NCBI GenBank assembly: GCA_033875325.1
Contig: JANRKA010000071.1
Coordinates: 8,980 to 72,979 of the forward strand
Direction: 5' to 3'
Length of the DNA stretch: 64,000 nucleotides
Source of the DNA: Elusimicrobiota bacterium
Lineage (GTDB): Bacteria; Elusimicrobiota; Elusimicrobia; UBA1565; UBA9628
Below are positions 36,071 through 53,732 of this stretch, one piece after another (within the stretch, counting starts at the first letter, position 1; each line of letters starts with the position of its first letter). The notes under the pieces were generated by a model. The model was not told the origin of the DNA and did no database searches. It saw only the letters and a list, made by a program, of their open reading frames with translations. A program made the position numbers and the translations under genes.

Positions 36071-36479
36071 ACGCGGGGGTCGTTCGTATAGCTTGTGTGG
36101 ATCAGGAGACCCCCGACGCATTCCGGTGGGAGGAATGGGACTGGCGGCCGCTGGCGCGCCTCATCGCCTGGGTCCTCCTCGCCGCCCTTTGGGCGCGCTC
36201 GCGAGACATCGTCTCGCTCGCGCTCATTCAGCGCGTTCTCCGCGAGCTCCTGCTCGGCTGGCTGCTCTCCTTCGGCCTGCTGACTTATGTCCAAGCGCTG
36301 ATCGCCACCGCGGCCTTCCGCCTCGCGCTCGCGCTCGACGACGCCGCTTACGGCCTGTCGGAACGCCTCGTGAGGCTCTTCATGCGCCGCGCGTCGTTCG
36401 CCGCGACTTTCGTCGCGGCGTTCGGCGTCGAGCTCACGTTCGTTCTCGGCGCGCTTTGTCTCGTCGTGGGGGCGCTGCG

Positions 36480-36899
36480 ATGATTACGAGCCTGCGGGTC
36501 GTGCACGCGGGCCGCCGCCCAGGGCCTCTCATCCGTTCGGCCGAGGACGCCTACCGCGTGCTGTGCCCGCTGGCGCGGGGCCTCGACCGCGAGCACTTCT
36601 GGCGGCTCGACCTCGATTCGCGGCGGCGGTTGCTCGGCTGCGAGCTCGTCTCGATGGGAAGTCTCGACGCCTCGATCGTCCATCCGCGCGAAGTGTTCAA
36701 AGGTGCGCTCCTGAACAACGCGCACAGCATCATGGTCGCGCACAATCATCCGTCCCATGACTTGAGGCCTAGCCAGGCGGACCGACGGACCACGAAGCAA
36801 CTCCTGTTCGTCGCGTGCATGCTCCAGGTGGACCTGGTCGACCATCTCATCGTCGGCGACGACAGCTACTTCAGTTTCAAGAAAGCGGGACTTCTCTAG
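36480..36899 (+). CDS. RadC-like JAB/MPN domain protein, second copy
   Basis: It has 'IMVAHNHPSHDLRPSQADRRTTKQL'. The ATG overlaps the stop of an upstream hydrophobic ORF (35974-36483) that may encode a small membrane protein. Confidence 0.7.
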   Translation: MITSLRVVHAGRRPGPLIRSAEDAYRVLCPLARGLDREHFWRLDLDSRRRLLGCELVSMGSLDASIVHPREVFKGALLNNAHSIMVAHNHPSHDLRPSQADRRTTKQLLFVACMLQVDLVDHLIVGDDSYFSFKKAGLL

Positions 36900-37964: not shown

Positions 37965-38918
37965 ATGCACAACGAATCAATAGAGCGTTGGACCCATGAC
38001 CACGTCTTCGGCCAAGATCGCCCGCGGTCGGGAGAAAGCCGGACGCAACTCGTGATCGTCATCACGGCGGTCATGATGGCGCTTGAGATCGGAGCCGGAA
38101 TCGCCTACGGCTCGATGGCGCTGCTGGCGGACGGGCTCCACATGGCCTCGCACGCTTCCGCGCTTGCCATCTCAGCGTTGGCCTATTACTACACCAGGCG
38201 GCACGCCCATGACGCGCGCTTCAACTTCGGCACAGGCAAGATCAACTCGCTGGCCGCCTTCGCGAGCGCGACGCTGCTCGCGGCATTCTCCGTGATCATG
38301 ACCTGGCAGAGCGCGGCGCGGCTCCTCGCTCCGGTCAAGATCGAGTTCAACCAGGCGATCCTCGTCGCCACCCTGGGATTGGCGGTCAACGGCGTCTGCC
38401 TGCTCATCCTCAAAAACCGCGGGCACTCGCACGACGACGAGCACGAGCATGCTCACGACGATCATGGGCACGCCGAGGATAGCGATCACAACCTCTGGTC
38501 CGCCTATTTGCACGTCCTGGCCGACGCCCTCACTTCGGTCTTGGCGATCGCGGCGCTGCTCGCCGGAAAGCGATTCGGCATGACATGGATGGACCCGGCC
38601 ATGGGCATGCTGGGCGCCGCGCTCGTCATCCGCTGGGCCTGGCAGCTTCTGCGCGCATCAAGCCATGTCCTCCTGGATATGCAGGCCCCGGAGACGATGC
38701 GGCGGGCCATCTGCGAGGCGATCGAGCGGCGCGGGAATGCCCGAGTGACGGACCTCCACGTATGGTCCGTGGGTCCTGGAATCTATGCGGCGGAGATCGG
38801 CGTCGTCGCCTCGGAGCCCGCGAGCGCGGACGAATACCGCAAGCTTCTTCCTGAAGCGCTTGGCGTCGTCCATGTCACGGTCGAGGCGCAGCGCTGCGAG
38901 TCGCGCGCCTCGGCATAG
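37965..38918 (+). CDS. czcD: cation diffusion facilitator (CzcD-type) metal efflux transporter
   Basis: It has the CDF TM core ('HMASHASALAIS', 'YLHVLADALTSV'), a His-rich loop 'HSHDDEHEHAHDDHGHAED' and a C-terminal cytoplasmic domain. Confidence 0.85.
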   Translation: MHNESIERWTHDHVFGQDRPRSGESRTQLVIVITAVMMALEIGAGIAYGSMALLADGLHMASHASALAISALAYYYTRRHAHDARFNFGTGKINSLAAFASATLLAAFSVIMTWQSAARLLAPVKIEFNQAILVATLGLAVNGVCLLILKNRGHSHDDEHEHAHDDHGHAEDSDHNLWSAYLHVLADALTSVLAIAALLAGKRFGMTWMDPAMGMLGAALVIRWAWQLLRASSHVLLDMQAPETMRRAICEAIERRGNARVTDLHVWSVGPGIYAAEIGVVASEPASADEYRKLLPEALGVVHVTVEAQRCESRASA

Positions 38919-38927
38919 GCCGATCTC

Positions 38928-40145
38928 GTGGCGGATTCAATCGAAACCACCCCTTCTCGCGCGATCCCGCGCGGCGTCTGGGTGCTGGGCTTCGTGAGCC
39001 TGTTCATGGATGTTTCGTCCGAGATGGTCCACAGCCTGCTGCCCGTGTTCATGGTCTCCGCGCTCGGAGCCGGCGCCTTTGCCGTCGGCCTAGTGGAGGG
39101 CGTCGCCGAGGCCACGGCTCTCATCGTCAAAGTGTTCTCCGGCACGCTCAGTGATTATCTCGGCCGCCGCAAGGAATTGGCCGCCTTCGGCTACGGCCTA
39201 GGGGCGTTGTCCAAACCCCTGTTCGCCCTGGCCGGGACGGTGAACGGCGTCCTTGCCGCCCGCTTCATCGACCGGATTGGAAAAGGGATGCGCGGGGCTC
39301 CCCGAGACGCGCTCGTCGCCGATCTGACGCCGGAGCCGATCCGCGGCGCGGCCTACGGCCTTCGACAATCCTTGGACACGGTCGGAGCCTTCCTCGGGCC
39401 GGTGCTGGCCATGGCGCTCATGCTGCTTTGGGCCGGGGATTTCCGAAAAGTTTTTTGGTTCGCCGTCATTCCCGGCATTCTCTCCGTGACGCTGCTCTTG
39501 TCCGGGGTCCGGGAGCCGGAGGCATCGAAGAAGCCCGGCGAGCCCCGGAGTCCGGTCCACTGGCGGACGCTGAAGCTCTTTGACAAGGCGTATTGGTGGG
39601 TCGTCGCCGTGGGCGCGGTGTTCACGCTCGCACGCTTCAGCGAGGCTTTCTTGATCCTGCGCGCACGCCAGAACGGCCTTTCCGACGCCTTGGCCCCGAC
39701 CGTGCTCGTCTTGATGAACGCGGTCTACGCCTCCACGGCCTATCCCGCCGGAAAGCTCGCGGACCGGATGGACCGCCGCCTTTTGCTCGCAGCCGGACTA
39801 CTCGTCTTGCTGCTCGCGGATCTAGCGCTGGCCCGGGCCGAGGGGTTGACGCTCGTCGCCGTCGGCATCGCCTTGTGGGGCCTGCATATGGGCATCACGC
39901 AAGGCCTGCTCGCGACGATGGTCGCCGCCGCCGCGCCGTCGCACCTGCGCGGGAGCGCCTTCGGCTTCTTCAATCTCGCCGGCGGCTGCGCGATGCTGGC
40001 GGCGAGCATGCTGGCCGGACTTTTGTGGGAACAGTTCGGCGCTCCCTCGACGTTCTATGCCGGAGCCGCGTTCTCGGCCGCCGCGCTGGTCCTCCTCGCC
40101 GCGAAGCCTGCCGACACCATCCCGACCGAACGCCGTTTGTCGTAA
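38928..40145 (+). CDS. MFS transporter
   Basis: It shows 12-TM hydropathy and a motif A-like 'GTLSDYLGRRK'. Confidence 0.7.
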   Translation: MADSIETTPSRAIPRGVWVLGFVSLFMDVSSEMVHSLLPVFMVSALGAGAFAVGLVEGVAEATALIVKVFSGTLSDYLGRRKELAAFGYGLGALSKPLFALAGTVNGVLAARFIDRIGKGMRGAPRDALVADLTPEPIRGAAYGLRQSLDTVGAFLGPVLAMALMLLWAGDFRKVFWFAVIPGILSVTLLLSGVREPEASKKPGEPRSPVHWRTLKLFDKAYWWVVAVGAVFTLARFSEAFLILRARQNGLSDALAPTVLVLMNAVYASTAYPAGKLADRMDRRLLLAAGLLVLLLADLALARAEGLTLVAVGIALWGLHMGITQGLLATMVAAAAPSHLRGSAFGFFNLAGGCAMLAASMLAGLLWEQFGAPSTFYAGAAFSAAALVLLAAKPADTIPTERRLS

Positions 40146-40213: not shown

Positions 40214-40279
40214 TTATTGAGATTGATTTTCAATAAGAATTGTGTTAGGCTCTCCCTTATTGAAATGACATTTCAATAA
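40214..40279 (+). promoter_or_regulatory. two AT-rich palindromic operators (TTATTGAGATTGATTTTCAATAA and perfect TTATTGAAATG-A-CATTTCAATAA) upstream of siderophore locus
   Basis: It is an AT-rich island in GC-rich DNA. The second site is a perfect 11+1+11 palindrome immediately before the RBS AAAGGAGG. A Fur/metalloregulator-box-like architecture is possible. Confidence 0.55.
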
Positions 40280-40292: not shown

Positions 40293-40505
40293 GTGCGCGA
40301 GAAGATAGCTGATGACGGGACCCGGGGCGAGGTCACGCTTTGCGGTTCCTGCGATGACGCGCACGTCCGCTGGGGCCGCCTGACGCTCAGCATTCCCCGA
40401 GAGGAATTCCTCAGGCTCGCGGACATGCTCGCTCGCGCCGCCGCCGATCTCTCGCGTGAGCCCGCCAAGAGGCCCGCGTGGAACGCGGCAGGACCGCTGC
40501 AGTGA
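40293..40505 (+). CDS. small hypothetical protein (70 aa) with Cys pair CGSC
   Basis: It has a strong RBS. It overlaps (GTGA) a possible GTG start of the synthetase. Confidence 0.3.
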   Translation: MREKIADDGTRGEVTLCGSCDDAHVRWGRLTLSIPREEFLRLADMLARAAADLSREPAKRPAWNAAGPLQ

Positions 40506-42238
40506 AGACCGCCCGCCACGAGGTGCTTGAGCGCGTCTTCAACGCCCTGTGGCGGGAAGGCTTCAGCGAGTCCAAGCGCTGGTCCGGCGGTCTCGCCACC
40601 GTGAGACTGCCCGGGGGCGCCGAAGTGGCCGCTCCGGCCGTGCGGATGGCCAGCCTGGGGGTCGTGCGAACCGGCTTTCCTTATTATGTCCGGGTGCCCG
40701 GCGGCCCGGTGGAGTCGCTCTCGGAGCCGGAACATCTGGTCGAGCTTCTTCCCGAAAGCGACGGCATGAGAAAGCGCTGGAGCGACGAAGTCGCTCAGAG
40801 CGCCGAGAACATGGGCTTCTTCCTGGACCGAGCCCTGGCTCGCCGCGCGGAACTAGGCTCCGCGCGGACGCTTTTGGAAGCCGCGCCCGCCGCGGCTCGC
40901 CGCTTGAATATAAGGCCTGAGGAATACCTGGAGTCCTGGGTGCTCCGCGGCCATCCGCTCCATCCCGGCTGCAAGACGCGCTGGGGCTTCGATCAAGACG
41001 ACTTAGCCCGATACTCTCCGGAGCTCGGCCGCCCCGTGGCGCTCTCGTTCTTCGCGCTGCGCCGCGACCACGTTCAAGAGACGCTGTCGCGTCCTGATGC
41101 GCCTGCCGCGTACCCCAGCTGCTGGACGGGGGTATTCGACGCGGAGCTGTCGGGCCTCGGCTTTGAGCCGTCCGAGTACGCGATCCTTGCCGCTCATCCC
41201 TGGCAGGCGGAGCGAGTGCTGCGTCGCTTGTTCGCGGACGAGCTGCGCTCGAAGGTCATCCTGCCTCTTTCGGCGACGTTCTTCGCGCAGCCGCTGACAT
41301 CGGTGCGCACGATGGCGCCGCTCTCCGCCTGCTCGCCCGTGCACTTGAAGCTGCCGCTCGCCATCCAATCGACGAGCGCCGAGCGCACGGTCTCGGCTCC
41401 TTCCGTGCGCAACGGCCCGGCGCTCTCACGCTGGATCGCGGCCGCGCTCGCGGCGGCTCCCAGGGTTTCCGAGATCCTCGAACTGCAGGAGGAAGTCCGC
41501 GGCCTCCACTATCGCGCGCCAGGCTCGGCCGAGAGCGACCCAGCCGCCCTCGAAAAGGCGCGTCACCTCTCTTTGCTTGCCCGAGTGCGGCCAAGCGAAC
41601 GCCCAGGAACTTCACTCGTTCCGGCCGCGCTGCTTTCGGAGCTGTCGCCGCTTGATGGAAGGCCGGTGGCGGCCGAGCTCGCCGAACGCCGCGGCGATGC
41701 CGCGCTTTTCTTCGCCGAGTGCGCCGAGGTGACGGCGCGCGCGCTCCTGCCGCTGCTCGCGCGAGGCTTGGCGCTTGAGGCCCACGGTCAAAACGTTCTT
41801 TTCCGCTTGGACGAGCGCGCCCGGCCGATCTCGTGGGTGCTGCGAGACCTGGGCGGCGTGCGCTTCCTCGCCTCGTGGATGAAGGATATCCATGCCTTCG
41901 AGCCGCATCCCGCCACGCTCATCGCCGCGGCCGACGAGGGCGAGCTGGTCGGAAAGCTGCACCACGCCTGGCTGCAGGGCCTTCTCGCGCCGCTCGCCGA
42001 CGCGCTCGTCGAAGGCTGTCACACGAATGACGAAGCCCTCTGGGAGGCGGCTCGACCGCGGGTTCGCACCGCGTGGAACCAGGCCTCGCCCGGCGGCGCG
42101 CGCGGCGCGCTGCTCGAACGGCTGCTCTTCGCTCCGCGCGTGCGGGTCAAGGCTCTCACGCGCATGCGCCTCAACCGGCGCTACGCGACCTACGACTGGT
42201 GCGAGATCGACAATCCGCTGTCGGAGGCCCGCGCTTGA
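40478..42238 (+). CDS. IucA/IucC-family NRPS-independent siderophore synthetase
   Basis: 'RWSDEVAQSAENMGFFLDRALARR', 'HPWQAERVLRRLF' and a FhuF-like C-terminus are present. Alternative GTG start at 40502. Confidence 0.8.
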   Translation: MERGRTAAVKTARHEVLERVFNALWREGFSESKRWSGGLATVRLPGGAEVAAPAVRMASLGVVRTGFPYYVRVPGGPVESLSEPEHLVELLPESDGMRKRWSDEVAQSAENMGFFLDRALARRAELGSARTLLEAAPAAARRLNIRPEEYLESWVLRGHPLHPGCKTRWGFDQDDLARYSPELGRPVALSFFALRRDHVQETLSRPDAPAAYPSCWTGVFDAELSGLGFEPSEYAILAAHPWQAERVLRRLFADELRSKVILPLSATFFAQPLTSVRTMAPLSACSPVHLKLPLAIQSTSAERTVSAPSVRNGPALSRWIAAALAAAPRVSEILELQEEVRGLHYRAPGSAESDPAALEKARHLSLLARVRPSERPGTSLVPAALLSELSPLDGRPVAAELAERRGDAALFFAECAEVTARALLPLLARGLALEAHGQNVLFRLDERARPISWVLRDLGGVRFLASWMKDIHAFEPHPATLIAAADEGELVGKLHHAWLQGLLAPLADALVEGCHTNDEALWEAARPRVRTAWNQASPGGARGALLERLLFAPRVRVKALTRMRLNRRYATYDWCEIDNPLSEARA

Positions 42239-43398
42239 GACTCCCGGCGCTCATCGCCTCTCATGCGCTCGCCGTAGCCGGCGTCGAGGCGGTTTTTTCG
42301 TTGTCGCCCTTGGTCCTGGCGCGCGCCGGCGCCGCGGGCGCCGGGCAGCAGGCGGCCTGGGCGGGCCTCGCGGCCGCCGCCGGAGTGGGGGCTTCCATGG
42401 CCGCCGCGCCTCTCTGGGCCCGGCTGGCCGACGCGGGCTATCGCCGAGGGATGCTCGCGCGCGCCTACGCCGGAATGGCGCTGGCCGCGATCGCCGCTCT
42501 GCTGGCCGCCGGGCCCTGGCAGTTCGTCGCGGCCCGCGTGCTGCTCGGCCTGCTCGGCGGCGGCACGCTCGCCGCGTCGTCGCTCGTCGCCGCGGGACCC
42601 GCCGGCGCGGCGGCGGTCTCGCGCGTGCAAGCCGCCTCGCTCTGGGGCGCCGCGCTGGGCCCCGTAGTTGGAGGCTGGCTGCTGGCCTCGGGACGGATAT
42701 GGGTGATCGGCCTATGGGCCACGCTCGGCGCCGTCGCGGCCGCCGCCGCGGCCGCCGCCGCGACGCTTCGCCTGCGCGTCGATGAGACTCCCGCGCCGCA
42801 AGAAGACGAGCCGGCAGCTTCCGCGTCCTCCTTCGGGCTCAGGGCGGGTCTCGCTTCGGCCGGCCGCTCCCTGGAAGACCCCTGGATTCCGCTCCTGGCG
42901 GGCGGCGACGCCGCCTTGGCCGGCGCCGCGCTCAGCGTGTCCCGAACGGCCGCGGCCTTGGCCGCGCCGGCCTGGGGAGCCGCCGCCTCGCGTCGCGGCC
43001 CGCGTCGCGTTTTGATTGCCGCTCTGGCCGCCGCGGGCGCTCTCACGGCCGCCCAGGCGCTTCCGCTCGGCGCGGGCGCGTTCCTCAGCGTGCGGGCGCT
43101 GCTCGGAGCCGCCGCCGGAGGACTCTCCGCCCTGCTCATGGCCGACGCCGTCGTCCTTTTAGGCGAACGGCGGCGCGGCGCCGCCTGCGCCGCCGTGGCT
43201 GTCGGGGCCGACGCCGGCAAGGCGGCAGCCGGCCTGGCCGCGGCGGCCTTGCCGGGCGCGACAGCCGCCGTCGCGCTCGGCGGAGCCGTTCTGCTCGTGC
43301 TTCCCCGCTTTCTTGTCAGTCAAAATCGTTGGAGGAGTTCATGCGACGTTTCGTCTTTGACGCCCACATCTACGCCGGTCGAATCGCCGGCGGCCTAG
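42235..43398 (+). CDS. MFS transporter (putative siderophore exporter)
   Basis: The TTG start overlaps the synthetase stop. The protein is Ala-rich with 12 TM helices. Confidence 0.55.
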   Translation: MRLPALIASHALAVAGVEAVFSLSPLVLARAGAAGAGQQAAWAGLAAAAGVGASMAAAPLWARLADAGYRRGMLARAYAGMALAAIAALLAAGPWQFVAARVLLGLLGGGTLAASSLVAAGPAGAAAVSRVQAASLWGAALGPVVGGWLLASGRIWVIGLWATLGAVAAAAAAAAATLRLRVDETPAPQEDEPAASASSFGLRAGLASAGRSLEDPWIPLLAGGDAALAGAALSVSRTAAALAAPAWGAAASRRGPRRVLIAALAAAGALTAAQALPLGAGAFLSVRALLGAAAGGLSALLMADAVVLLGERRRGAACAAVAVGADAGKAAAGLAAAALPGATAAVALGGAVLLVLPRFLVSQNRWRSSCDVSSLTPTSTPVESPAA

Positions 43399-46300
43399 TC
43401 CTGCTCTGGTCGCTCACGGGATCGCTGATGATCCTGGACCCGATCCTGCGGCGCGGCCTCGACCGCGTCCCGAAGCAGGCGGCTTTGGCTCGCGTCGACG
43501 CGGCGACGGTCTCGCCCTCCGCGCTGCGCGCCGCCTCCGGTCCCGCGACCGCCGTGCGCCTGCGTGCGGACGGGAGACGGACTTGGCTCGAAGTAGAGCG
43601 GCCGAAGGGTCCGCTCGAGGCCTACGACGCCGCGACCGGCCGGCCGACGCATGCCCTGTTGCAGCTTGATGAGGCGCTCGCGCTTCTCGGCAAACAGCTC
43701 GAAGGGGGGAAGTGGCGTCCGGTTTCCGCCGAGCGCATCGACGCGTACGACTATGATTACAAGACCGGCGAGCTGCCGGCCTTCCGTATCCGGCTTGAAG
43801 GGCCCGGTGGGATCGTCCTCTATGTTTCCGCGCGCGATGGCTCGTGGCAGAAGACGACGACGGTCTGGGCCCGCGCGTTCAAGAGGCTCGGGATGGGCCT
43901 GCACACTTGGAACTGGCAGTTCCTGCGTGGGCCGTGGGACGACACTCGCCGCTGGGCGCTGGTGCTCCTCATCGGACTTCCGTGCACGCTCCTGGGGGCG
44001 CTCGGCCTGATCCTTCTGCGGCTTCGCAGCAAGGCGGCGGCCGCGGCTCCGAAGGCGGCCGCGCGGCGGGCCGTCGCCGCAGGCGCCGCGGTCTCGGTGC
44101 TTCTCTCATGCGTCCCGCAGGCCTCGGCCCAAGCGATGGCCCGCGCCGTCTCTTCGCGGCCGGTCGGCGCGCCCGGCGTCACGATGATCGTGCCGGGCGC
44201 AAGCGTCTCGGCGCATTCGTCGCTGGCGCCTGCCACCTCCATCGGGTTGATTCCACCGGCCCACATCAACGCGCCGTCCGTCACGCCGCCGCAGCAGCCA
44301 GCGCCTCTCGCGAGCCGGGTAGCGGTAATCCCCGCCGCGCTCGCCATCCCGATGCCGCTTCCAGCGTCCGCCATCGCTCAACCGCGCTCCGCGATCGGCG
44401 CTGCCAGTCTCAAGCCCGAAATCGAGCTCGCGTCGCCTCGCCAGCTTGCGACGAGGCTGACTCCCTCGATACCGGAGACCGCCGTCGCGCCCCAGGCGTC
44501 CGACGCTTCAGCCGAATCTTTCGCCGTAGCCGGTCGCATCCTCTTCGACGGAGCCGGAGCCGCGGCGGCCGACGGCGCGCCCGTTCCAGCCGCGCCGCAC
44601 TCTGGAGGCAGGAGCAACGGTCTGGCGCCTCCGGGCGGCAACTCCGATGAACCGCCGCGCCCTCCGCGCCGCTCGGGCGCCTTCGGGCTCTACGCCACGC
44701 ACGCCGCCCATATGGCGGTCATGTCCTCGGTCTGGCGCGTGGCCTGGCCGCTTTTCGCGCTCGATACGATCGGCAAAGCCGGACTCGCCTGGGTCGGCTC
44801 GACCGCGGGCCTCGCGACGATGGGCGGCGGGCTCATCGCGGGCGTTCTCGTCGACCGATTTCTTCCGCGCCGCTCGCTCGTGGGCTCGGCGCTCGTGCGC
44901 GCCGCGCTGGCCGCGGGCGTCGCCGTGGCCGCGTTCACCGCTTCTCCGGGCGTCGCGTTCTTCCTGGCCGCGGCGACGGCGCACTCCTTCGCCACGATGA
45001 CCGTCCATATCGGCCAGTCGGCGCTCTCGCCCCGCGTGGCGGGCGGCGACGAGACGAAGCTGCAGAGGATCAACACGACGCTCAAACTCATCTCCGCAGC
45101 GGTCTCGATCCCAGGAGCTCTCGTGGGGGGTTGGCTCGCGGCCTCGGTCGGAGTTCCCGGCGCCTTCCTTGCCTACGCCGCCGTGTCGCTCTTGATCTTG
45201 GCGCCCGCGTATCACTTCCTTCTGCCCGAGGCCGGTTCCGCGAACGACGCGCCCGAAGAAAAGAAGCCGAAGGGCGGCTTCTTGGAGACCGCGCGCGTCA
45301 TCCTCTCCAGCCGGCCCGCGCTGGCGGCGATGGCCGCCATGGCCCTTCTCACGCTGATGAACGCGCCGCTCCAGGGCACGACTTTGCCGATCCTCGCGCG
45401 CGAAGGCCTGTCGGGCGGCGCGCAGTCGGTCGGAGCGCTCCTGTCGGCGTTCAGCGCCGGCCAGTTCGTCGGCATCCTGGCTCAGCTTACCCTCGCCAAG
45501 AAGCTGCCGCCCAAGGCCTGGGTCTGGCTCGGCGCCGCGGGCATGGCGGCGTTCTCGCTGCTGACACTGACGTTGCCGGCCTTCTGGCCTACCGCCGCGG
45601 CGGTCGCGCTCCTCGCGGCGCTGACGCAGCCGGCCTCGGTCGCGCTCAAGACGATCTTCCAAAAGGAAGTCGCCGCCCGGCGCCCCGAGCTGCTCGGCCG
45701 CGCCATGGGCCTGAACAGCCTGGCCTACGAGCTGGCGGTCGTCGGCGGGGGAGCGCTGCTCGCCCTTGCCGTCGCCGGTACGCTGGCTTCGGCCCTGTCT
45801 ACGCTGGCGCTCGTCTATGCCGGCCTGGGTCTCGCCGTCGGGGCGGCTGCGTGGTGGATGGGCCGCAAGCCCCGACCCAAGGATGGGTCCGGCTCGAAGC
45901 TGCACGGCTTTGCGCTCGGCGCGCTGCCGCTCGCGCTCGGCGCCGGAACGCCCGCGGCATGGCACGTCCTCGCGGGGACCGCGTTCGGCGCGCTGATCCT
46001 TCTCTATTCGATCACCGGCACGGTGAGCCTGATCTCGCCATGGCTCAAGCAGGTCTTCGATCCGAAGCTTCCCGCCTATCCCGAGGTCCGGGTCGAGGCC
46101 GAGCAGTTCCCGCTGTCGCCCGCGACCGCGGTCCTGGCTCTCACGCAGGAGGAGCGCGCCCAGCTCAAGCCCGGCATGCCGAGGCTTCGCGCCGCGCCGG
46201 GCTCTCCGCCCAAGCGCTGGTACGCTTTCGAGCTGGCCGACGGCTCGCTGGTAGACGTCCACGCCCGCACCGGCCGCCGCATGCGCTCGCCTCGCTCGCC

Positions 46301-47396
46301 GGCGTTCGTCCGCTCGCAGGTCCGCCGCTGGCTGGCCGGCACGCCGTGGAAGGCGCGCGGCCGGCCCGTCCTGATGACCGCGCAGGGAGACCACTACCGA
46401 AAGGGGGAGACGCCCCACTACCGCGTGGATCTCGACGGCCCAGGGGGGTATCAAGCGTTCTTTTCGGTCAAGGACGGCAGGCTTCTCGAAACGCACTCTC
46501 GCCTGTCGCGCTTCCTGCGGCTGACCGGCAAGGGCCCGCATACTTGGGCGATCAAGGCGCTCGACCGTCACGATATTCTCAAGCGCCTGCTCACGCCGCT
46601 GTTGCTGGGCCTGCCCATGCTCGCCATCGCTGCGACGGCGTTCTGGCTCAAGGTTCGCCACGGCTTCTCGATCGAGATTCCGTCTTTCGGCTCGGACGTC
46701 GGCGTCTGGCATCGCTTTCTCGGCACCTATTCCTTGTTCGCGCTGGCGCTTATGTCGGTCACGGGCCCGCTGACTTTGCTGATGCCCGTCGTGACCAAGA
46801 AGCTCACGCCTAAGCTACCTTCCGCGAAAGTCCTTGGGCCAGAGGCCTTCACGATCTCGCCGCTCGAGGCCGCCGAGCGTCTGGGCTCGGATGTACAGCC
46901 CGTCTCGGCGTCGTTGCGCGCCACGAGCCGCCGCGCCTGGTATGAGTTCGTGTTGGCTGACGGCACGCGCCGGGCCATCTCGGCCCAGGACGGCGGCGAA
47001 CTGCCAGTCCTGATGACGCCTCAGGAGATCGAGACGGAGACACGAGACTGGCTCGAAGGGAGCGCATGGTCGGTCAAGGGCACGCCGCTGCTGCTCGAGA
47101 CCTTTGACGCGCATTACAAGGACTTTCAAGAAGCCGAACTTCCGGTTTACCGCGTAGAGCTGAACGGCCCTAAGGGTCTGCGGCTCTATCTCTCGGCGCG
47201 TGACGGCCGGCCGGTCAACATGCTCTCGGTCCGCACGCGCCTTTCGCGCTGGCTCGCCGTCGGCGTAAAGGCGGTGCACGCCTTCGAATGGGGGCCGTTC
47301 GGGCGCAACGAGACGCTGCGGCGCTTGGCGATGATCCTCCTGCTCACGCTGCCGCTCGCGGCGACCGTAATCCTCGGCTTCATCGCGAGGCTATGA
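43329..47396 (+). CDS. 1355-aa multidomain membrane protein: PepSY-TM module + Ala/Pro-rich linker + MFS-like transporter core + two further PepSY-TM modules
   Basis: The N-terminus 'FVFDAHIYAGRIAGGLVLLWSLTGSLMI' is the PepSY_TM helix. Residues ~450-850 have MFS-like hydropathy ('LVDRFLPRRSL'). The C-terminal repeats 'LTGKGPHTWAIKALDRH…' and 'HAFEWGPFGRNETLRRL' are PepSY-TM-like. It is one uninterrupted frame. Confidence 0.55.
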   Translation: MEEFMRRFVFDAHIYAGRIAGGLVLLWSLTGSLMILDPILRRGLDRVPKQAALARVDAATVSPSALRAASGPATAVRLRADGRRTWLEVERPKGPLEAYDAATGRPTHALLQLDEALALLGKQLEGGKWRPVSAERIDAYDYDYKTGELPAFRIRLEGPGGIVLYVSARDGSWQKTTTVWARAFKRLGMGLHTWNWQFLRGPWDDTRRWALVLLIGLPCTLLGALGLILLRLRSKAAAAAPKAAARRAVAAGAAVSVLLSCVPQASAQAMARAVSSRPVGAPGVTMIVPGASVSAHSSLAPATSIGLIPPAHINAPSVTPPQQPAPLASRVAVIPAALAIPMPLPASAIAQPRSAIGAASLKPEIELASPRQLATRLTPSIPETAVAPQASDASAESFAVAGRILFDGAGAAAADGAPVPAAPHSGGRSNGLAPPGGNSDEPPRPPRRSGAFGLYATHAAHMAVMSSVWRVAWPLFALDTIGKAGLAWVGSTAGLATMGGGLIAGVLVDRFLPRRSLVGSALVRAALAAGVAVAAFTASPGVAFFLAAATAHSFATMTVHIGQSALSPRVAGGDETKLQRINTTLKLISAAVSIPGALVGGWLAASVGVPGAFLAYAAVSLLILAPAYHFLLPEAGSANDAPEEKKPKGGFLETARVILSSRPALAAMAAMALLTLMNAPLQGTTLPILAREGLSGGAQSVGALLSAFSAGQFVGILAQLTLAKKLPPKAWVWLGAAGMAAFSLLTLTLPAFWPTAAAVALLAALTQPASVALKTIFQKEVAARRPELLGRAMGLNSLAYELAVVGGGALLALAVAGTLASALSTLALVYAGLGLAVGAAAWWMGRKPRPKDGSGSKLHGFALGALPLALGAGTPAAWHVLAGTAFGALILLYSITGTVSLISPWLKQVFDPKLPAYPEVRVEAEQFPLSPATAVLALTQEERAQLKPGMPRLRAAPGSPPKRWYAFELADGSLVDVHARTGRRMRSPRSPAFVRSQVRRWLAGTPWKARGRPVLMTAQGDHYRKGETPHYRVDLDGPGGYQAFFSVKDGRLLETHSRLSRFLRLTGKGPHTWAIKALDRHDILKRLLTPLLLGLPMLAIAATAFWLKVRHGFSIEIPSFGSDVGVWHRFLGTYSLFALALMSVTGPLTLLMPVVTKKLTPKLPSAKVLGPEAFTISPLEAAERLGSDVQPVSASLRATSRRAWYEFVLADGTRRAISAQDGGELPVLMTPQEIETETRDWLEGSAWSVKGTPLLLETFDAHYKDFQEAELPVYRVELNGPKGLRLYLSARDGRPVNMLSVRTRLSRWLAVGVKAVHAFEWGPFGRNETLRRLAMILLLTLPLAATVILGFIARL

Positions 47397-48004
47397 TGAC
47401 GATGCGCGCCCTCATCTCAGCGATTCTGCTTTCGTGGTCCGCGGTGAGCGAAGCCGCGGGACCCCGAAGGCCCGCGGCTCCACCGAACGGCGGCGCGTCG
47501 ACGCCTTCCGTCCCTCGCGTCTCGCTGCCGATATTACCTGCTCAGACCTTCAACTCCCCGCCTACGCCGCCCTCAACGGGCGGAACGCAACCGCTGCGTC
47601 TCTCGCGCGATGTCGCGCGGGACGAGGCCGCCGCGACGCTGGCCGCCGCCGGCTTTCCCGAGCGCTTGCGAGAGCACGGGCTGGTCGTCTGGCAGATCCT
47701 GCGCGCAAAGACTCGCGGAGGGGAGAAGGCCTTCCTCACGGTCGGCCTTCCCGCGGACGGCATTCCGCTTGAGCGCGGCTCCGGGAATCCCGAGCGCCGC
47801 GCAGAGCTGGACCGGCGGCTCGAGGCCGCGCGCGACTTCATCGTCTCCGAGGCGTCGCGCCTGCTCGGGATGCCCGAGGACATGGTCTCAGTGAACGCGC
47901 GGCTCGTCGCGACCTGCTGCGGCGCGGGCTGTCAGTCGTGTCTCATCACCAAGCCCGAGCACGCCGAGCGCTGGACCGGACAGAAGCCGCGTCCCACGAA
48001 ATAA
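47393..48004 (+). CDS. secreted hypothetical protein with C-terminal CCGAGCQSC motif
   Basis: It has a signal peptide MMTMRALISAILLSWSAVSEA and a Pro-rich segment. ATGA overlap with the upstream gene. Confidence 0.4.
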   Translation: MMTMRALISAILLSWSAVSEAAGPRRPAAPPNGGASTPSVPRVSLPILPAQTFNSPPTPPSTGGTQPLRLSRDVARDEAAATLAAAGFPERLREHGLVVWQILRAKTRGGEKAFLTVGLPADGIPLERGSGNPERRAELDRRLEAARDFIVSEASRLLGMPEDMVSVNARLVATCCGAGCQSCLITKPEHAERWTGQKPRPTK

Positions 48005-48415: not shown

Positions 48416-49660
48416 TTGTCGAGCAGGATACTTATGACCCAGTTGATATTTCTCTTCATCTTGGCGACGGCCCCCGCCATCGCCGCCGAGCCCGCATGCC
48501 CCGCGCTGTCGAGCCCGCAATCCGTGCTCGATTGCGTGCTCCGCGTGCATCCCGCAGCCAAGGGATCGGCGGCGTTGCTGTTGCAGGCGGAGGCGCTCGG
48601 AAGCGCGGCCGGGCAGCGGCCGAACCCGGAGGCCGCGGGCACCGGGGTTTTCGGCGACTCGCAGGATCAAATGCAGGTCTCGCTCCTTCATACGTTCGAG
48701 ACCGGCGGCAAGAGAGGTCGTCGGCTGGATCGCGCGCGCGCCGAGGCCCTCGAACTGGGGGCCGAAGCGTTGAGCGTCAAGGAGGAGATCGCTGTCGACA
48801 CCGTCTCCGACCTTTTCCGTCTCCGCCAGATCCGCGAGGAGCTCAAGCTGTTGCAGGAGGCTTTGGACACCTTCTCGAGGATCGCCCGGCAGCTGCGGGC
48901 GCGTCCGCGCCGGTCTCCCGAGCAGGAGGTCTCGTTGTCGGTGTTCCAGCTCGCCGAGCGTGATTATTCCGTCAAGCGCTCGGCCCTCGAAGGCGAGACA
49001 CTCGCCCTCCGCAGGGAGCTCGAACTCGGGTTAGGGGCGCCGCTCCCGGATTCCGATTCAGTGCTCCCTGCGCGGCGCACCCAATGGCCCGACCTGGGCG
49101 CGCCGGGTTCGCCGGCGGCGCTTCGAGGCTCGTCGGCTCTGCGCGCCACGGCGGCGCTCGAGGCGGCGCAAGCCGAGCTAGGCTCGGCCCGGGCGGCGGC
49201 TTATCCGGACGTCCAACTTGGACCGAGCGTCCAAAGGCAAAAGAACGGACCCGGCGAGGGCTCGTCGACCTTGCTCGGCGCGAGTTTTTCGCTGCCGCTT
49301 CCTCTTTACCAGCGCAACGCGGGCGGCAAGCGATTAGCGACACGAGCGGTCGAGACTGCCCAGGCGAGGTCCGCGGCGGCAATGGCGGCTCTCGGCGCGC
49401 AGAGGGACGCGGAACTCGCGCGCTACCGTGCCGCTACTTCGACGCTCGCCCAGGCCGGCGACACCGAGAAGCTCGAAGCCGAGCACGAGAAGATGGAAGG
49501 GCTCTATGAACGAGGCCTGATTCCCAGCGCGCTCGTCATCGAGGCTCACCGGCAGATGGTCGACTATACGCGCGACCTCAACGAGCAGGAGCTGGGCGCC
49601 GTCCGCGCTCTCTGGACGATCTATGCGATCGAAGGCCGCGTTCTCACGGAGAAACTGTGA
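48416..49660 (+). CDS. TolC/CusC/CzcC-like outer membrane efflux factor
   Basis: It has a signal peptide and two OEP repeats rich in coiled-coil heptads ('LSVFQLAERDYSVKRSALEGETLALRRELE'). Confidence 0.8.
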   Translation: MSSRILMTQLIFLFILATAPAIAAEPACPALSSPQSVLDCVLRVHPAAKGSAALLLQAEALGSAAGQRPNPEAAGTGVFGDSQDQMQVSLLHTFETGGKRGRRLDRARAEALELGAEALSVKEEIAVDTVSDLFRLRQIREELKLLQEALDTFSRIARQLRARPRRSPEQEVSLSVFQLAERDYSVKRSALEGETLALRRELELGLGAPLPDSDSVLPARRTQWPDLGAPGSPAALRGSSALRATAALEAAQAELGSARAAAYPDVQLGPSVQRQKNGPGEGSSTLLGASFSLPLPLYQRNAGGKRLATRAVETAQARSAAAMAALGAQRDAELARYRAATSTLAQAGDTEKLEAEHEKMEGLYERGLIPSALVIEAHRQMVDYTRDLNEQELGAVRALWTIYAIEGRVLTEKL

Positions 49661-50271
49661 ACATGATCAAGCTGATTCCCATCGCCTTGCTGCTGCTGGC
49701 GGCTCCCTCGCAGGCGAGCGACGAGCACAAAGATCACAAACCGGGCGAAAAGCATGCGGATGCTCGCAAGAAGGAAGTTGGCCCGGCAAAAGACGAGCAC
49801 GATCATGAGCCGGGTGAAAAGCACGCTGAAGATCACAAAAAGGAAGGCGCCCCCGCGAAAGACGAGCACGAAGGCGAAGAGGGACACGGCGAGGAGCACG
49901 GGGAAGAAGAAGAGGCAAGCCCCAATGTCGGCCCCGGCAAGGGCGTGGAGGCCTTCGGACATGAAGGCATGAAGCTGTCGGCGAAGGCGGCGGCGAGCTT
50001 GGGTTTCAAGACATCGCCCATCGCGGGCAACGGCGCGGTCAAGGTGCCTGTGTCGGCCCTGGTCTTCTTCCAAGACGAGGTCGGCGTCTATCGATCGCGC
50101 GGGGGCTGGATCAAGCTCGTCGAGGTCGAGCTTGCGGAGCGGACGAAGCGCGACGCCATCGTGCGCTCCAAGGAGCTAAAGCCGGGCGATCAATTGGTCG
50201 TCGCGGGAGCCGCCGCGATCCGGGTCATCGAGCTCGACCTGACCAGCGGCGACGTGGGCCACGGGCACTGA
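49657..50271 (+). CDS. short (204 aa) periplasmic adaptor-like protein with His/Glu-rich repeats
   Basis: It has a signal peptide, then three 'DEHxxxPGEKHA' repeats. The C-terminal ~100 aa ('VPVSALVFFQDEVGVYRSRGGWIKLVEVELAERTKRDAIVRSKELKPGDQLVVAGAAAIRVIE') resemble the beta-barrel/membrane-proximal end of HlyD-family adaptors. It lacks the lipoyl and alpha-hairpin domains. Confidence 0.45.
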   Translation: MNMIKLIPIALLLLAAPSQASDEHKDHKPGEKHADARKKEVGPAKDEHDHEPGEKHAEDHKKEGAPAKDEHEGEEGHGEEHGEEEEASPNVGPGKGVEAFGHEGMKLSAKAAASLGFKTSPIAGNGAVKVPVSALVFFQDEVGVYRSRGGWIKLVEVELAERTKRDAIVRSKELKPGDQLVVAGAAAIRVIELDLTSGDVGHGH

Positions 50272-50281
50272 GGACTATTCC

Positions 50282-53200
50282 ATGATAAACAAGATCATTC
50301 ATTTTTCCGTCTACAACCGCGGCGTCGTGCTGCTCTTCACGGTGCTGGCGGCCCTCGCGGGCTGGTCAGCGTTCGAGAACCTTCCCATCGACGCCGTGCC
50401 GGACATCACGAACGTCCAGGTCCAGGTGAACTCTCAAGTGGACGGCCTGGCCCCCGAGGAGATCGAGCGCGGCGTGACCTTCCCGATCGAGGCCGCCATG
50501 AGCGGCATCGCGGGAGTCGAGCAGGTGCGCTCCATCACCCGCTTCGGCCTTTCCCAGGTGACGGTGATCTTCGAGGAAGGGACGGACATCTATCGGGCGC
50601 GTCAGATGGTTTCCGAGCGTCTGCAGAACGCGTCAGGGCAGCTTCCCGCGGGCGTCTTGCCCCGTCTCGGACCCATCAGCACGGGCCTGGGCGAGATCTT
50701 CTATTACACGCTCGAAGCCGAGAAGCCGGCCGAGGGCGAGGAGCGAATAAGGCAGCTAATGGAGCTTCGAGCGCTTCATGATTGGACCGTTAAGCCCCGC
50801 CTCTTGACCGTCAAGGGCGTCGCCGAGGTCAACGTCATCGGCGGCTACGAGAAGCAATACCACGTTCAGCCCCGGCCGGCTGCTCTCGCGCGCTACGGCT
50901 TGCGCTTCTCGGACCTCAAGGAGGCCCTGGAGCGGACCAACCGCAACGCGGGAGGCGGCTACGTGCAGCAGACCGGCGAGCAATTCCTCGTCCAGGCGGT
51001 CGGGCTCTTGAAGACGCCCGAGGAGATCCGCCGCGTCCCGATCAAGTCCCTCGAGACGCTCAAGACGGTCACGATCGGAGACGTGGCCGCCGTCGGCCTC
51101 GCGACGGAGCTTCGCACCGGCGCCGCGCTCGTGCGCGGCCGCGAGGGGGTGCTCGGCAGTACGCTCATGCTCATGGGCGCGAACAGCCGCTCGGTCTCCC
51201 TGCGCGTCGCCGAGCGGCTTGCCGAGATCCAGAAGAACCTGCCTCCCGGCTACAAGCTCGAGACTCTCTACGACCGCTCCGTGCTGGTCAACGCCACGCT
51301 GGGCACGGTCGAGCACAACCTCGTGACGGGAGCCGCGCTCGTCATCGTGATCCTTCTGCTTCTGCTCGGCAACGTCCGCGCCGCTTTGATCACGGCCGTG
51401 ACGATCCCGCTGACCTTGCTCATGACCTTCATCGTCATGCGCTGGTTCGGCATGTCGGGAAACCTCATGAGCCTGGGCGCGCTCGACTTCGGCATCATCA
51501 TCGACGGCGCGGTGATCGTCCTGGACAACTGCGTCCGCATGGTGCATCTGCGCGCCAAGCAGCTCGGCCGCGGGCTCACGGGACCGGAGGTCCAGAAGAC
51601 GGTCTACGAGGCCGCCGTCGAGATCCGGACGGCGGCCGGCTTCGGCGAGCTCATCATCGTCGTCGTCTTCCTGCCCATCTTCGCGCTCGTCGGCATCGAG
51701 GGCAAGATGTTCGTGCCGATGGCGGGAACGTTCTGCGCGGCGGTGCTGTGCGCGCTGATCCTCTCGTTCACGACGGCGCCGGCTTTGGCGAGCCTCTTCC
51801 TCAAAGGCGACACGGACGACAAGGAGCCTTGGCTCATGCGCAAGGTGCGGGCCGGCTACGCGCCGATACTCTCAGGCGCCGTGACCCGCCGCAAATGGAC
51901 CGTCGGGGTCGGCCTGTCCGCCGTTGCCTTGGGCGGCATCCTTTACGTGCGACTGGGCGGCGAGTTCCTTCCTCAGCTCAACGAGGGCTCGTTCACCTTC
52001 CAGTTCGTGCGTCCCGTCAACGTCAGCCTCGACCAGTCCATCGCGTTCCAGGAACGCTCCGAGAAGCTGCTCGGAGCGTTCGAAGAGGTCTCGGTCGTCT
52101 TCTCGCGCATGGGCACGGCGGAGATCGCCACCGACCCGATGGGCGTGAACATCTCCGACACCTACGTCATGCTCAAGGACAAGAAGGATTGGCCGCTCGT
52201 CGACGGCAGGAGACGGACCAAGGACGAGCTGGGAGCCGCGATGAGCAAGCGGCTGGCGGAGGAGATCCCAGGCCAGCGCGCGCTGGCGAGCCAGCCCATC
52301 GAGATGCGCTTCAACGAGTTGTTGGAGGGCACCAGGGCCGACATCGCGATCAAGGTCTTCGGCGACGACTTGGACAAGCTCACGCAGGTCACCAAGGAGA
52401 TCGCCGAGATCGTGGGCAAGGTGCAAGGGGCCGGCGAGGTCGAGCCTGAGCTGCGCGGCAAGTCGCCGCTCTTGCGCGTGGTTCCGCGCGAGGGCGTCCT
52501 GCGCACGCTCGGCGTCTCGACCATCGAAGTGCTCGAGACGATCGGGATCGCGCTCGGCGGCGAGGAGGCCGGTCAGATCTATGAGGGCGTCCGGCGCTTC
52601 CCGATCATCGTGCGCTTGAGCCCGACCGACCGCACGGACCTAGACTCCATCCGGAAGCTCCCCGTTGGCATCGGAGCCAACGCCACGATCCCTCTCACTG
52701 AGGCGGCGGAGGTGTCTTTCACCGAGGCTTACGGCGCGGTCACGCGCGAGGACGCCAAGCGAAGGGCCGCCGTCCTCGTCAACCTCGCCGGGCGGGACAC
52801 GGAGAGCTTCGTCGGGGAGGCCCAGGCTGCCGTCGAGGCCAAGGTCAAGCTGCCGCCGGGCTACTACGTCGAATGGGGGGGAAACTTCAAGAATCTTCAG
52901 AAGGCGCGCGCCCGGCTGATGCTCTTGACCCCCGTGGCGTTGGTCCTGGTCCTTATGATGATCTACGCCGCGTTCAAGAACGTCTATGAGACGATGCTGA
53001 TCTTCTCCTGCGTGCCGCTGGCGCTGGTCGGCGGCGTCCTCGGTCTCATGCTCAACGGCCTGCCGTTCAGCATCTCGGCCGGCGTCGGGTTCATCGCGCT
53101 GACCGGCATCGCGGTGCTCAACGGCGTCGTGCTCGTGCACTACTTCAACGACCTGCGAGCAGCCGAGGGGCTGTCTGGCTGGAAGCTGGTGGAGAAGGGA

Positions 53201-53727: not shown

Positions 53728-53732
53728 ATCAT

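What the first reader, a model, noticed from the sequence alone, without database searches (positions are those of the whole stretch)
43329..47396. Giant single-ORF fusion of three PepSY-TM modules with an MFS-like transporter core, downstream of an IucA/IucC siderophore synthetase
PepSY-TM proteins (PiuB-like) normally are ~400-aa stand-alone ferric-siderophore reductase/uptake components. MFS exporters are separate genes. Here a 1355-aa frame strings together PepSY-TM, an Ala/Pro-rich linker, ~400 aa with MFS-like hydropathy, and two more PepSY-TM units. It lies immediately after an MFS gene and the siderophore synthetase. This architecture is not one I know as described.
Basis: partly seen in the sequence, partly recalled or inferred. 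Interest (0 to 1): 0.6.

Follow-up and report, generated by a model that had tools for sequence, protein, structure and literature searches.

The report
Siderophore reductase units fused to transporter
An uncultured Elusimicrobia bacterium encodes one 1351-residue membrane protein that joins a 12-helix MFS transporter to three heme-type PepSY_TM ferric-reductase units inside a siderophore operon, an undescribed architecture suggesting that iron release from siderophores and membrane transport are physically coupled.

Summary
The ORF is real. It runs 43329-47396 (+); the likely true start is ATG 43341, giving 1351 aa.

Frame-specific GC3, Pfam hits above cut-off, and intact single-ORF homologues (40-96% identity) from independent assemblies exclude a frameshift artefact.

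The three units are paralogous (30-33% identity). Each is half of a FoxB-like reductase: two TM helices around a periplasmic lobe. Each keeps both candidate heme-ligand histidines.

The spacer is the native N-terminal extension of this Elusimicrobia MFS clade.

The gene sits in a translationally coupled, probably metal-regulated operon: small Cys protein, FslA-like NIS synthetase, FslB/MdtG-like MFS, the fusion, and a novel ~200-aa protein with a CCGAGCQSC motif. In some relatives that last protein is inserted into the fusion, and in one genome the fusion is split into separate genes.

All named relatives are Elusimicrobia; I found no description in the literature.

Best reading: an inner-membrane module that couples reductive iron release from a citrate-type siderophore to MFS transport. 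Transport direction, heme binding and the Cys protein's role are inferred, not shown.

This is a new variant of known kinds.

The parts
40214..40236 (.). Operator-like inverted repeat TTATTGA-N9-TCAATAA, copy 1
   Evidence: 2 matches in the window, 0 in 100 shuffles. The same motif lies upstream of the cassette in L007 and L009. In L001 it lies between a ferritin gene and iron-transport genes.
40257..40279 (.). Operator-like inverted repeat, copy 2, just upstream of the RBS of the first gene
40293..40505 (+). 70-aa protein with C-x2-C...H-x-R-W motif, first gene of the cassette; function unknown
   Evidence: ORF. The 73-74-aa genes in the same position in L001, L003 and L004 hit it by tblastn at E 4e-13 to 9e-12. 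No Pfam or NCBIfam hit.
40502..42238 (+). NIS siderophore synthetase (IucA/IucC plus FhuF-type C-terminal domain), FslA-like
   Evidence: Pfam IucA_IucC E 2e-51 and FhuF E 3e-19. Best NCBIfam hit is FslA rhizoferrin synthetase, E 3e-34, below cut-off. The start at GTG 40502 is inferred from the GTGA overlap and the homologue N-termini.
42235..43398 (+). Stand-alone MFS, candidate siderophore exporter (MdtG/FslB-like)
   Evidence: Pfam MFS_1. NCBIfam best hits are MdtG (E 7e-11) and FslB rhizoferrin exporter (E 2e-4). The TTGA start/stop overlap was read from the sequence.
43341..47396 (+). The fusion gene (1351 aa from ATG 43341; ORF opens at 43329)
43341..44033 (+). PepSY_TM unit 1 (aa 5-235): TM, ~170-aa periplasmic lobe, TM; His13 and His192
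   Evidence: Pfam piece E 2e-6. Paralogous to units 2 and 3. Both His are invariant. Stand-alone ~250-aa homologues exist.
44034..44693 (+). Ala/Pro/Ser-rich spacer (aa 236-455) opening with a signal-peptide-like hydrophobic stretch (RRAVAAGAAVSVLLSCVPQASAQA)
   Evidence: Composition. Only 34% of substitutions fall at third positions, with no indels against L006. The same element heads unfused MFS relatives P0035, P0039, P0050 and P0057.
44694..45866 (+). 12-TM MFS core (aa 456-846), DHA3-like by sequence
   Evidence: Pfam MFS_1 E 2e-20. TIGR00900 E 8e-24, below cut-off. Foldseek aligns ~400-440 columns to 12-TM MFS structures. K+R count is 24 inside and 2 outside.
45906..46658 (+). PepSY_TM unit 2 (aa 860-1110); His879 and His1071
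46659..47393 (+). PepSY_TM unit 3 (aa 1111-1355); His1128 and His1317
47393..48004 (+). 203-aa 'CC protein': Sec-like N-terminus, Ala/Pro spacer, ~135-aa domain ending in the CCGAGCQSC...WTG motif (only the last Cys varies, in one relative); its start overlaps the fusion's stop (ATGA)
   Evidence: Identical JGI protein P0010. The domain is inserted between the MFS and unit 2 in P0005 and P0007. AF2 pLDDT 89. No Pfam, PDB-sequence or PDB-fold relative.

Best explanation
The gene encodes an inner-membrane machine for using the cell's own citrate-type (NIS, rhizoferrin-like) siderophore. Three FoxB/PiuB-type PepSY_TM half-units would each contribute one histidine at each face of the membrane. Together they would bind b-type hemes and carry electrons from the cytoplasm to ferric siderophore held by the periplasmic PepSY lobes. 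The covalently attached 12-TM MFS would then move the product across the membrane. That product is most likely the anionic siderophore or its iron complex, because the transport cavity has become basic. The neighbouring genes supply the rest: an FslA-like synthetase, an FslB/MdtG-like exporter, and a Cys4-motif protein that is a candidate redox or metal-handling partner. Shown here: the ORF, its domains, conservation of the histidines, the synteny, and the fused and split variants. Inferred: heme binding, reductase activity, the substrate, the direction of transport and the role of the Cys protein.
For: Domain content. The only columns invariant across nine units, including canonical two-unit PepSY_TM proteins, are the His before each TM, a Gly in the first TM and a Pro in the lobe; all six His are present here. 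FoxB is a 4-TM, two-PepSY, di-heme ferric-siderophore reductase with His ligands, and a His N-terminal to each TMD is a family hallmark. Every locus with upstream sequence has the order small ORF / IucA-IucC / MFS / fusion. The synthetase is nearest to FslA and the first MFS nearest to MdtG/FslB. This matches the fsl/lbt layout of one synthetase, one exporter MFS and one importer MFS. Gene fusion and fission: the unit1-MFS, CC and unit2-unit3 genes are separate in L007, in the same order as the domains of P0005. Where unfused relatives have Glu in TM4 and Asp/Glu in TM5, the fused clade has Gln and Lys, plus an added Arg in TM1. An operator-like repeat is shared with ferritin and iron-transport genes in L001. 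FoxB can replace the MFS permease RhtX in schizokinen use, so the two activities serve the same end.
Against: By sequence the MFS core sits with DHA3/EntS-type exporters, not with known siderophore importers. An odd number of half-units cannot form complete FoxB-like four-helix pairs within one chain. The AF2 model (mean pLDDT 62, pTM 0.40) says nothing reliable about packing. No sequence match to FoxB or any other solved structure. No outer-membrane receptor was found in the conserved cassette. There are no experimental data of any kind; all relatives come from metagenomes.
Confidence: 0.55

Rival explanations
1. The MFS core is a siderophore exporter, as its DHA3/EntS-like sequence suggests. 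Fusion to the reductase units only ensures co-assembly of export (or re-export of apo-siderophore) with periplasmic reductive iron release. The released Fe2+ enters through a separate transporter encoded elsewhere.
For: TIGR00900 and MFS_3 are the best family matches. Relatives hit Tap, Mef and EntS models. Known PepSY_TM systems hand the released iron to separate transporters such as FpvDE or FeoAB.
Against: The cassette already has an FslB/MdtG-like exporter. The fused clade has lost the membrane-embedded Glu and Asp/Glu that its unfused relatives carry in TM4 and TM5. Reading those as proton-coupling residues is my inference. Export and periplasmic reduction are not consecutive steps, so a conserved covalent fusion is harder to explain.
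Confidence: 0.22
2. The system handles copper or another metal rather than iron, as CrpH (a PepSY_TM protein) and CcoA (an MFS copper importer) do.
For: A PepSY_TM subfamily linked to copper exists. The window neighbours are metal-efflux genes: CDF, RND and a P-type ATPase. L001 has an SCO1/SenC gene upstream.
Against: Linkage to an IucA/IucC synthetase and an FslB-like MFS is conserved, while the efflux genes and SCO1 are not. The shared operator sits next to ferritin and P19/FtrD-type iron genes in L001.
Confidence: 0.06
3. The giant ORF is an assembly or frameshift artefact that joins separate genes.
For: A split arrangement exists naturally in L007. One MAG (L009, protein P0024) shows false mega-ORFs caused by frameshifts.
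Against: Single ORFs of 1330-1477 aa were recovered from many independent assemblies at 42-96% identity. There is no indel against L006, and the substitution pattern is that of coding sequence. GC3 stays in frame throughout.
Confidence: 0.02
4. The PepSY_TM units no longer bind heme and serve only as periplasmic substrate-capturing or regulatory lobes for the transporter.
For: Pfam scores for the single units are weak. There is no detectable sequence similarity to FoxB. The unit number is odd.
Against: Both His of every unit are conserved in all relatives, while the rest of the units diverged to ~30% identity.
Confidence: 0.1

Closest known systems
FoxB (P. aeruginosa PA2465) and other PepSY_TM/PiuB-type periplasmic ferric-siderophore reductases (FpvG, FhuB of B. 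cenocepacia, HiuB)
   Same: TM / periplasmic PepSY lobe / TM units with a conserved His before each TM and a (S/T)G in the first TM. Pfam PF03929 is above cut-off. The gene sits in a siderophore locus.
   Different: Known members are stand-alone ~380-530-aa proteins with two units (4 TM). This protein has three units (6 TM), split 1+2 around a 12-TM MFS. Each lobe is ~170 aa and is predicted as two alpha+beta subdomains. There is no detectable pairwise similarity to the solved FoxB.
fsl / lbt rhizoferrin systems (FslA/LbtA synthetase, FslB/LbtB exporter MFS, FslD/LbtC importer MFS)
   Same: One NIS synthetase followed by two MFS genes. The synthetase is nearest to FslA and the first MFS nearest to MdtG/FslB.
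   Different: All scores are far below the equivalog cut-offs. The second MFS is DHA3-like and fused to reductase units. No FslE/LbtU-type receptor or FslC decarboxylase is present. Some relatives add an ATP-grasp gene.
DHA3 / EntS-type MFS (TIGR00900, PF05977)
   Same: Best sequence-family match, 12 TM, motif A (GVLVDRFLPRRS).
   Different: 84.6 bits against a cut-off of 319.6. TM4/TM5 acidic residues are replaced by Gln and Lys, and TM1 gains an Arg. There is a long N-terminal spacer and PepSY_TM units at both ends.
FhuF-type ferric-siderophore reductases (FSR; 2Fe-2S on C-C-x10-C-x2-C)
   Same: The downstream or inserted CC domain ends in C-C-x3-C-x2-C, the same pattern of two adjacent Cys followed by CxxC. 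It also sits in a siderophore system.
   Different: The spacing is 3, not 10. There is no Pfam, PDB-sequence or fold match, so the domain is not a detectable FhuF homologue.

Membership tests
PepSY_TM (PF03929 / COG3182, FoxB-PiuB type) | Pfam PF03929 match above the gathering score | tested here: met
   44.0 bits against 28.8 for the whole protein. Single units score 13.6-28.2 bits, below the cut-off on their own.
PepSY_TM (PF03929 / COG3182, FoxB-PiuB type) | Conserved His N-terminal to each transmembrane domain (heme axial ligands in FoxB) | tested here: met
   H13, H192, H879, H1071, H1128 and H1317 are present. They are conserved in homologues and invariant across nine aligned units. Feature as defined.
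PepSY_TM (PF03929 / COG3182, FoxB-PiuB type) | (S/T)G motif near the C-terminal end of each TMD | tested here: inconclusive
   Present in the first TM of each unit (LTG, ITG, VTG), with the Gly invariant. Absent from the second TM of each unit.
PepSY_TM (PF03929 / COG3182, FoxB-PiuB type) | Four-helix bundle from two tandem units in one stand-alone polypeptide | tested here: not met
   Three units, arranged 1 + MFS + 2. Packing could not be modelled reliably (pTM 0.40).
PepSY_TM (PF03929 / COG3182, FoxB-PiuB type) | Periplasmic PepSY-fold lobes | tested here: met
   AF2 lobes have pLDDT 70-89 with helix plus 3-4 strands, twice per unit. Pfam PepSY PF03413 matches the L007 orthologue at E 9e-6.
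PepSY_TM (PF03929 / COG3182, FoxB-PiuB type) | Bound b-type heme and ferric-siderophore reductase activity | not testable with these tools
   Needs purified protein.
Major facilitator superfamily (PF07690) | Pfam match above cut-off, 12 TM, motif A between TM2 and TM3, MFS fold | tested here: met
   64-73 bits against 33.4. Twelve hydrophobic segments with K+R 24 inside and 2 outside, and DRFLPRRS after TM2. Foldseek TM-score up to 0.73 relative to 12-TM MFS structures.
DHA3 H+ antiporters (TIGR00900) | Score above the curated cut-off | tested here: not met
   81.5-84.6 bits against 319.6. Nearest family only.
Siderophore-importing MFS (FslD/LbtC, RhtX/FptX) | Sequence similarity to a characterised importer | tested here: inconclusive
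   No such model appeared in the NCBIfam or Pfam scans. I could not confirm that models for these importers are in the libraries.
fsl/lbt-type rhizoferrin cluster | FslA and FslB equivalog scores | tested here: not met
   FslA 118 bits against 1000; FslB 20.5 bits against 600. Only the layout and the nearest-family relation agree.
FhuF-type ferric-siderophore reductase (FSR) | C-C-x10-C-x2-C motif and FhuF fold | tested here: not met
   The motif is C-C-x3-C-x2-C. No Pfam, PDB-sequence or Foldseek match.

The most novel reading that the evidence does not exclude
The fusion and the Cys4-motif domain form a self-contained transmembrane redox-transport unit. A cytoplasmic metal- or Fe-S-binding CC domain feeds electrons into the cytoplasmic heme of the PepSY_TM units. 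Ferric siderophore is reduced in the periplasmic lobes, and the product is passed directly into the attached MFS. In some relatives the CC domain is inserted between the cytoplasmic C-terminus of the MFS and the cytoplasmic-face His of unit 2. If this reading is right, it would name both the electron donor and the transport partner, which remain unidentified for FoxB-type reductases.
Probability: 0.15. Interest if true: 0.75.

Novelty: new variant of a known kind. Interest (0 to 1): 0.55.

Why it matters
Two things are still unknown for PepSY_TM (FoxB/PiuB-type) reductases: where the electrons come from, and how the released iron crosses the inner membrane. The transporter for FoxB and FhuB 'remains to be identified'. 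A natural fusion that is conserved, and that also exists as separate adjacent genes, is Rosetta-stone evidence that a PepSY_TM reductase and an MFS permease act as one unit. It also points to a small Cys4-motif domain as a third partner. The result is a compact candidate for biochemical and structural work on coupled reduction and transport. It also documents a siderophore system in the uncultured phylum Elusimicrobia.

Tried and rejected
**Searches that gave nothing**
- Sequence search of units 2+3 and of the MFS core against PDB chains found nothing, even at E 10 and 0.1. A profile of the MFS clade gave only noise.

**Structure work that did not resolve the question**
- The AF2 model of a linker-deleted construct was too uncertain to read unit packing or heme sites (pLDDT 62, pTM 0.40). 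Foldseek on it returned only generic MFS hits, with ferroportin no better than drug pumps.

**Leads on the CC domain that failed**
- My recollection that CCGxGCxxC resembles Pfam 'Oxidored-like' was not supported: no Pfam hit at E 10.
- FhuF kinship was not supported.

**Readings I rejected**
- L009/P0024 looked like an MFS-unit1-MFS-unit2 mega-fusion, but its junctions are out-of-frame Arg-rich text, so they are assembly frameshifts.
- I tested whether the linker is a cleaved internal signal peptide or a membrane pass. Charge counts put both ends of the spacer in the cytoplasm, so a single pass is excluded. The element remains unexplained.
- The window has no ATP-grasp homologue of the gene found downstream in L001, L004 and L005 and no second paralogue of the fusion.
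Full report

An ORF of 1355 codons lies at exactly 43329..47396 on the + strand. The DNA is about 70% G+C, so long spurious ORFs are expected. A 734-codon antisense ORF (44508-46712) and a 560-codon ORF in another frame (45131-46813) do overlap it, and both give Arg-rich translations.

Four lines of evidence show the reported frame is the coding one.
- GC3 is 0.77-0.93 in that frame in every 300-nt block.
- Pfam finds MFS_1 and PepSY_TM above their gathering scores.
- Full-length homologues exist at 42-96% identity.
- Against a 96%-identical copy from an independent MAG (L006) there is no indel over the shared sequence. Substitutions are 72-76% at third codon positions in unit 1, unit 2 and the MFS core.

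The TTG at 43329 is only the first possible start. A GGAGGAG site precedes the ATG at 43341 and all homologues begin MRRF, so the protein is most likely 1351 aa.

**2. Anatomy** (numbering from the TTG)

- *Unit 1, aa 5-235.* His13, a TM helix containing LTG, a ~170-aa soluble region, His192, and a second TM helix.
- *Spacer, aa 236-455.* Composition is 25% Ala, 15% Pro and 11% Ser. It opens with a signal-peptide-like stretch, RRAVAAGAAVSVLLSCVPQASAQA. Its substitutions are spread evenly over codon positions (34% at the third), yet it keeps the frame. It therefore looks like a low-constraint tether.
- *MFS core, aa 456-846.* It has twelve hydrophobic segments, and motif A (GVLVDRFLPRRS) follows TM2. 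Lys+Arg counts are 24 in loops predicted to be cytoplasmic against 2 in periplasmic ones. The core therefore has the standard N-in, C-in topology. Foldseek aligns 400-440 columns of the model to 12-TM MFS structures.
- *Units 2 and 3, aa 860-1110 and 1111-1355.* They repeat the plan of unit 1, with His879/His1071 and His1128/His1317.

The three units match each other over ~230 aa at 30-33% identity, E 1e-22 to 1e-37. I aligned them with two stand-alone single units and the four halves of two canonical PepSY_TM proteins. Only four columns are invariant: the His before each TM, a Gly in the first TM and a Pro in the lobe.

In the AF2 model each lobe is predicted, at pLDDT 70-89, as two helix-plus-sheet subdomains. 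The TM packing is not trustworthy (mean pLDDT 62, pTM 0.40).

Each 'module' is therefore one half of a FoxB-type protein. FoxB is a four-helix bundle capped by two PepSY domains. It holds two b-hemes coordinated by conserved His residues.

**3. Relatives and how the fusion arose**

The family is small.
- The 5.8-billion-protein search gave 9 clusters. A profile search added none.
- The exhaustive search of 1.84 billion representatives gave 185 hits at E <= 1e-3 and 16 at E <= 1e-30.
- The scan of 185,579 species genomes gave four loci, all in Elusimicrobia MAGs.
- Every source name available says Elusimicrobia, with labels such as 'PepSY domain-containing protein' or 'MFS transporter'.

The parts occur in several combinations.
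- Three-unit proteins like this one: P0001-P0006, P0019, P0020.
- Two-unit proteins (unit 1 - MFS - one unit): P0007, P0008, P0023. L008 is of this type and comes from the same MAG as the 96% copy.
- Unit 1 - MFS alone: P0026, 831 aa.
- Units 2+3 alone: P0028.
- Single ~250-aa units alone: P0029-P0032.

In L007 the system is split into adjacent genes: unit1-spacer-MFS (830 aa), a DUF6607 gene, a CC-protein gene, then a 711-aa unit2-unit3 protein.

Unfused MFS relatives from Elusimicrobia (P0035, P0039, P0050, P0057) already carry the signal-like stretch and a ~200-aa Ala/Pro spacer at their N-termini. The 'linker' is therefore ancestral to the MFS clade and is not a by-product of fusion.

**4. 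Context**

In every locus that extends far enough, the order is: a ~70-aa Cys protein, an IucA/IucC+FhuF synthetase, an MFS, then the fusion.

In the window the genes overlap: GTGA at 40502, TTGA at 42235, 58 nt at 43341-43398, and ATGA at 47393. Such overlaps are typical of translational coupling.

Two copies of an AT-rich inverted repeat, TTATTGA-N9-TCAATAA, lie just upstream (40214-40236 and 40257-40279). None is expected by chance. The motif recurs upstream of the cassette in L007 and L009. In L001 it lies between a ferritin gene and an outer-membrane/P19/FtrD-type gene set. A metalloregulator site is the natural reading, but that is an inference.

The synthetase is nearest to FslA (rhizoferrin). 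The first MFS is nearest to MdtG and FslB. All scores are far below the curated cut-offs. The published fsl/lbt systems have this same layout: one NIS synthetase, an exporter MFS (FslB/LbtB) and an importer MFS (FslD/LbtC).

**5. The downstream CC protein**

The gene at 47393-48004 encodes a 203-aa protein that is identical to a JGI hypothetical protein. It has a Sec-like N-terminus with an AxA site, an Ala/Pro spacer, and a ~135-aa domain ending in the motif CCGAGCQSC...WTG, in which only the last Cys varies, in one relative.

The domain is present in every related locus with downstream sequence except L005. In P0005 and P0007 it is inserted between MFS TM12 and unit 2. This Rosetta-stone link makes it part of the system.

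Its AF2 model is confident (pLDDT 89, pTM 0.84). It has no Pfam, PDB-sequence or PDB-fold relative.

The motif has the same pattern as the C-C-x10-C-x2-C 2Fe-2S site of FhuF-type ferric-siderophore reductases, but the spacing differs. I treat this as a lead only.

**6. An unexplained conflict**

Charge counts place the MFS C-terminus in the cytoplasm. No hydrophobic segment lies between TM12 and the inserted CC domain in P0005 or P0007. The inserted domain should therefore be cytoplasmic, next to the cytoplasmic-face His of unit 2.

Yet the stand-alone CC proteins and the 711-aa L007 protein begin with what look like cleavable Sec signals. The same element sits inside the fusion between two cytoplasmic ends. 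I could not resolve this with the tools available.

**7. Most likely mechanism**

The protein most likely couples FoxB-type transmembrane electron transfer, and periplasmic reduction of the cell's own ferric siderophore, to an MFS that carries the product across the membrane.

The cavity residues point to an anionic substrate, not to Fe2+. Unfused relatives have Glu in TM4 and Asp/Glu in TM5. The fused clade has Gln and Lys there, an added Arg in TM1, and two His in TM4. A citrate-based siderophore or its iron complex would fit.

Direction is open. By family the core is DHA3/EntS-like, that is exporter-like. On the other hand the cassette already has an exporter candidate, and the acidic TM4/TM5 residues of the unfused relatives (which I read as the proton-coupling positions) are gone from the fused clade.

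With three half-units, one chain cannot form only complete FoxB-like pairs. Dimerisation, an idle unit or a six-helix arrangement are all possible. PepSY_TM proteins with up to six TM helices are reported.

Confidence is about 0.55 for the reductase-plus-permease utilisation reading and about 0.2 for the exporter variant.

**8. Comparison with what is known, and novelty**

The parts belong to known kinds: PepSY_TM, MFS and an NIS cluster. The combination is not described in the papers I could search. A survey of more than 195,000 PepSY_TM proteins that I read does not mention it.

The literature states that the transporter acting after FoxB and FhuB is unidentified. It also reports that FoxB can substitute for the MFS permease RhtX. 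A conserved natural fusion of the two activities therefore bears on an open question.

I rate it a new variant of a known kind, of moderate interest. It is limited by its narrow distribution in uncultured bacteria and by the complete absence of experimental data.

Noticed in passing
window 40214-40236 and 40257-40279; L007 4615-4637; L009 4580-4602; L001 15944-15966: An AT-rich inverted repeat, TTATTGA-N9-TCAATAA, occurs twice upstream of the cassette (0 expected by chance). It is conserved in related loci and also sits next to ferritin and iron-transport genes in L001. It is probably a metalloregulator operator. It does not match the classical Fur-box consensus as I recall it.
   Followed up: partly
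window 40293-40505 (+): A 70-aa protein with a CGSC...HVRW motif heads the cassette. It is conserved in the same position in L001, L003 and L004. No family match; function unknown.
   Followed up: partly
window 44064-44135 (fusion aa 246-269), window 47393-47470 (CC protein N-terminus); L007 ~12009-12110: A Sec-signal-like hydrophobic stretch with an AxA site, followed by an Ala/Pro spacer, precedes three different modules whose following end should be cytoplasmic: the MFS core, the CC domain, and units 2+3 in L007. Its topology and role are unexplained.
   Followed up: partly
L009 6738-11153 (database protein P0024, 1420 aa): An apparent MFS-unit1-MFS-unit2 mega-protein in a 3.1-Mb MAG contig is an artefact of frameshifts. 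Its junctions read as Arg-rich out-of-frame text, yet it is stored in protein databases as a real sequence.
   Followed up: yes
window 37965-40145 and 48416-58795: Metal- and efflux-type genes flank the cassette: a CDF (37965-38918), an MFS (38928-40145), an OEP (48416-49660), a 204-aa ORF with no family hit where an RND adaptor would be expected (49657-50271), an AcrB-type pump (50282-53422), a P-II protein (53419-53727) and a P-type ATPase (56591-58795). None of these is conserved next to the cassette in relatives.
   Followed up: no
window 30092-36899: Two RadC-like JAB genes (31823-32518 and 35955-36899), a ParB-like gene (34365-35894) and a NucS/DUF4268 gene (30092-31627, minus strand) lie together here. 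They may mark a mobile or defence island bordering the metal gene cluster.
   Followed up: no
L001 14431-15411, L004 7237-8235, L005 5055-6026, L008 ~3445-4416: A ~325-aa RimK-like ATP-grasp gene follows the fusion or the CC gene in several relatives but is absent from the window. It may modify the siderophore in those genomes.
   Followed up: partly
L007 ~4690-4820 and L009 ~4708-4822: Between the operator repeats and the synthetase, these loci carry a short ORF with CxC...CxxC spacing, read by eye from the sequence and not tested.
   Followed up: no
window 44508-46712 (-) and 45131-46813 (+): Long ORFs of 734 and 560 codons overlap the gene in other frames. Their Arg-rich translations suggest they are by-products of the high G+C content. 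I did not search them against any family library.
   Followed up: partly
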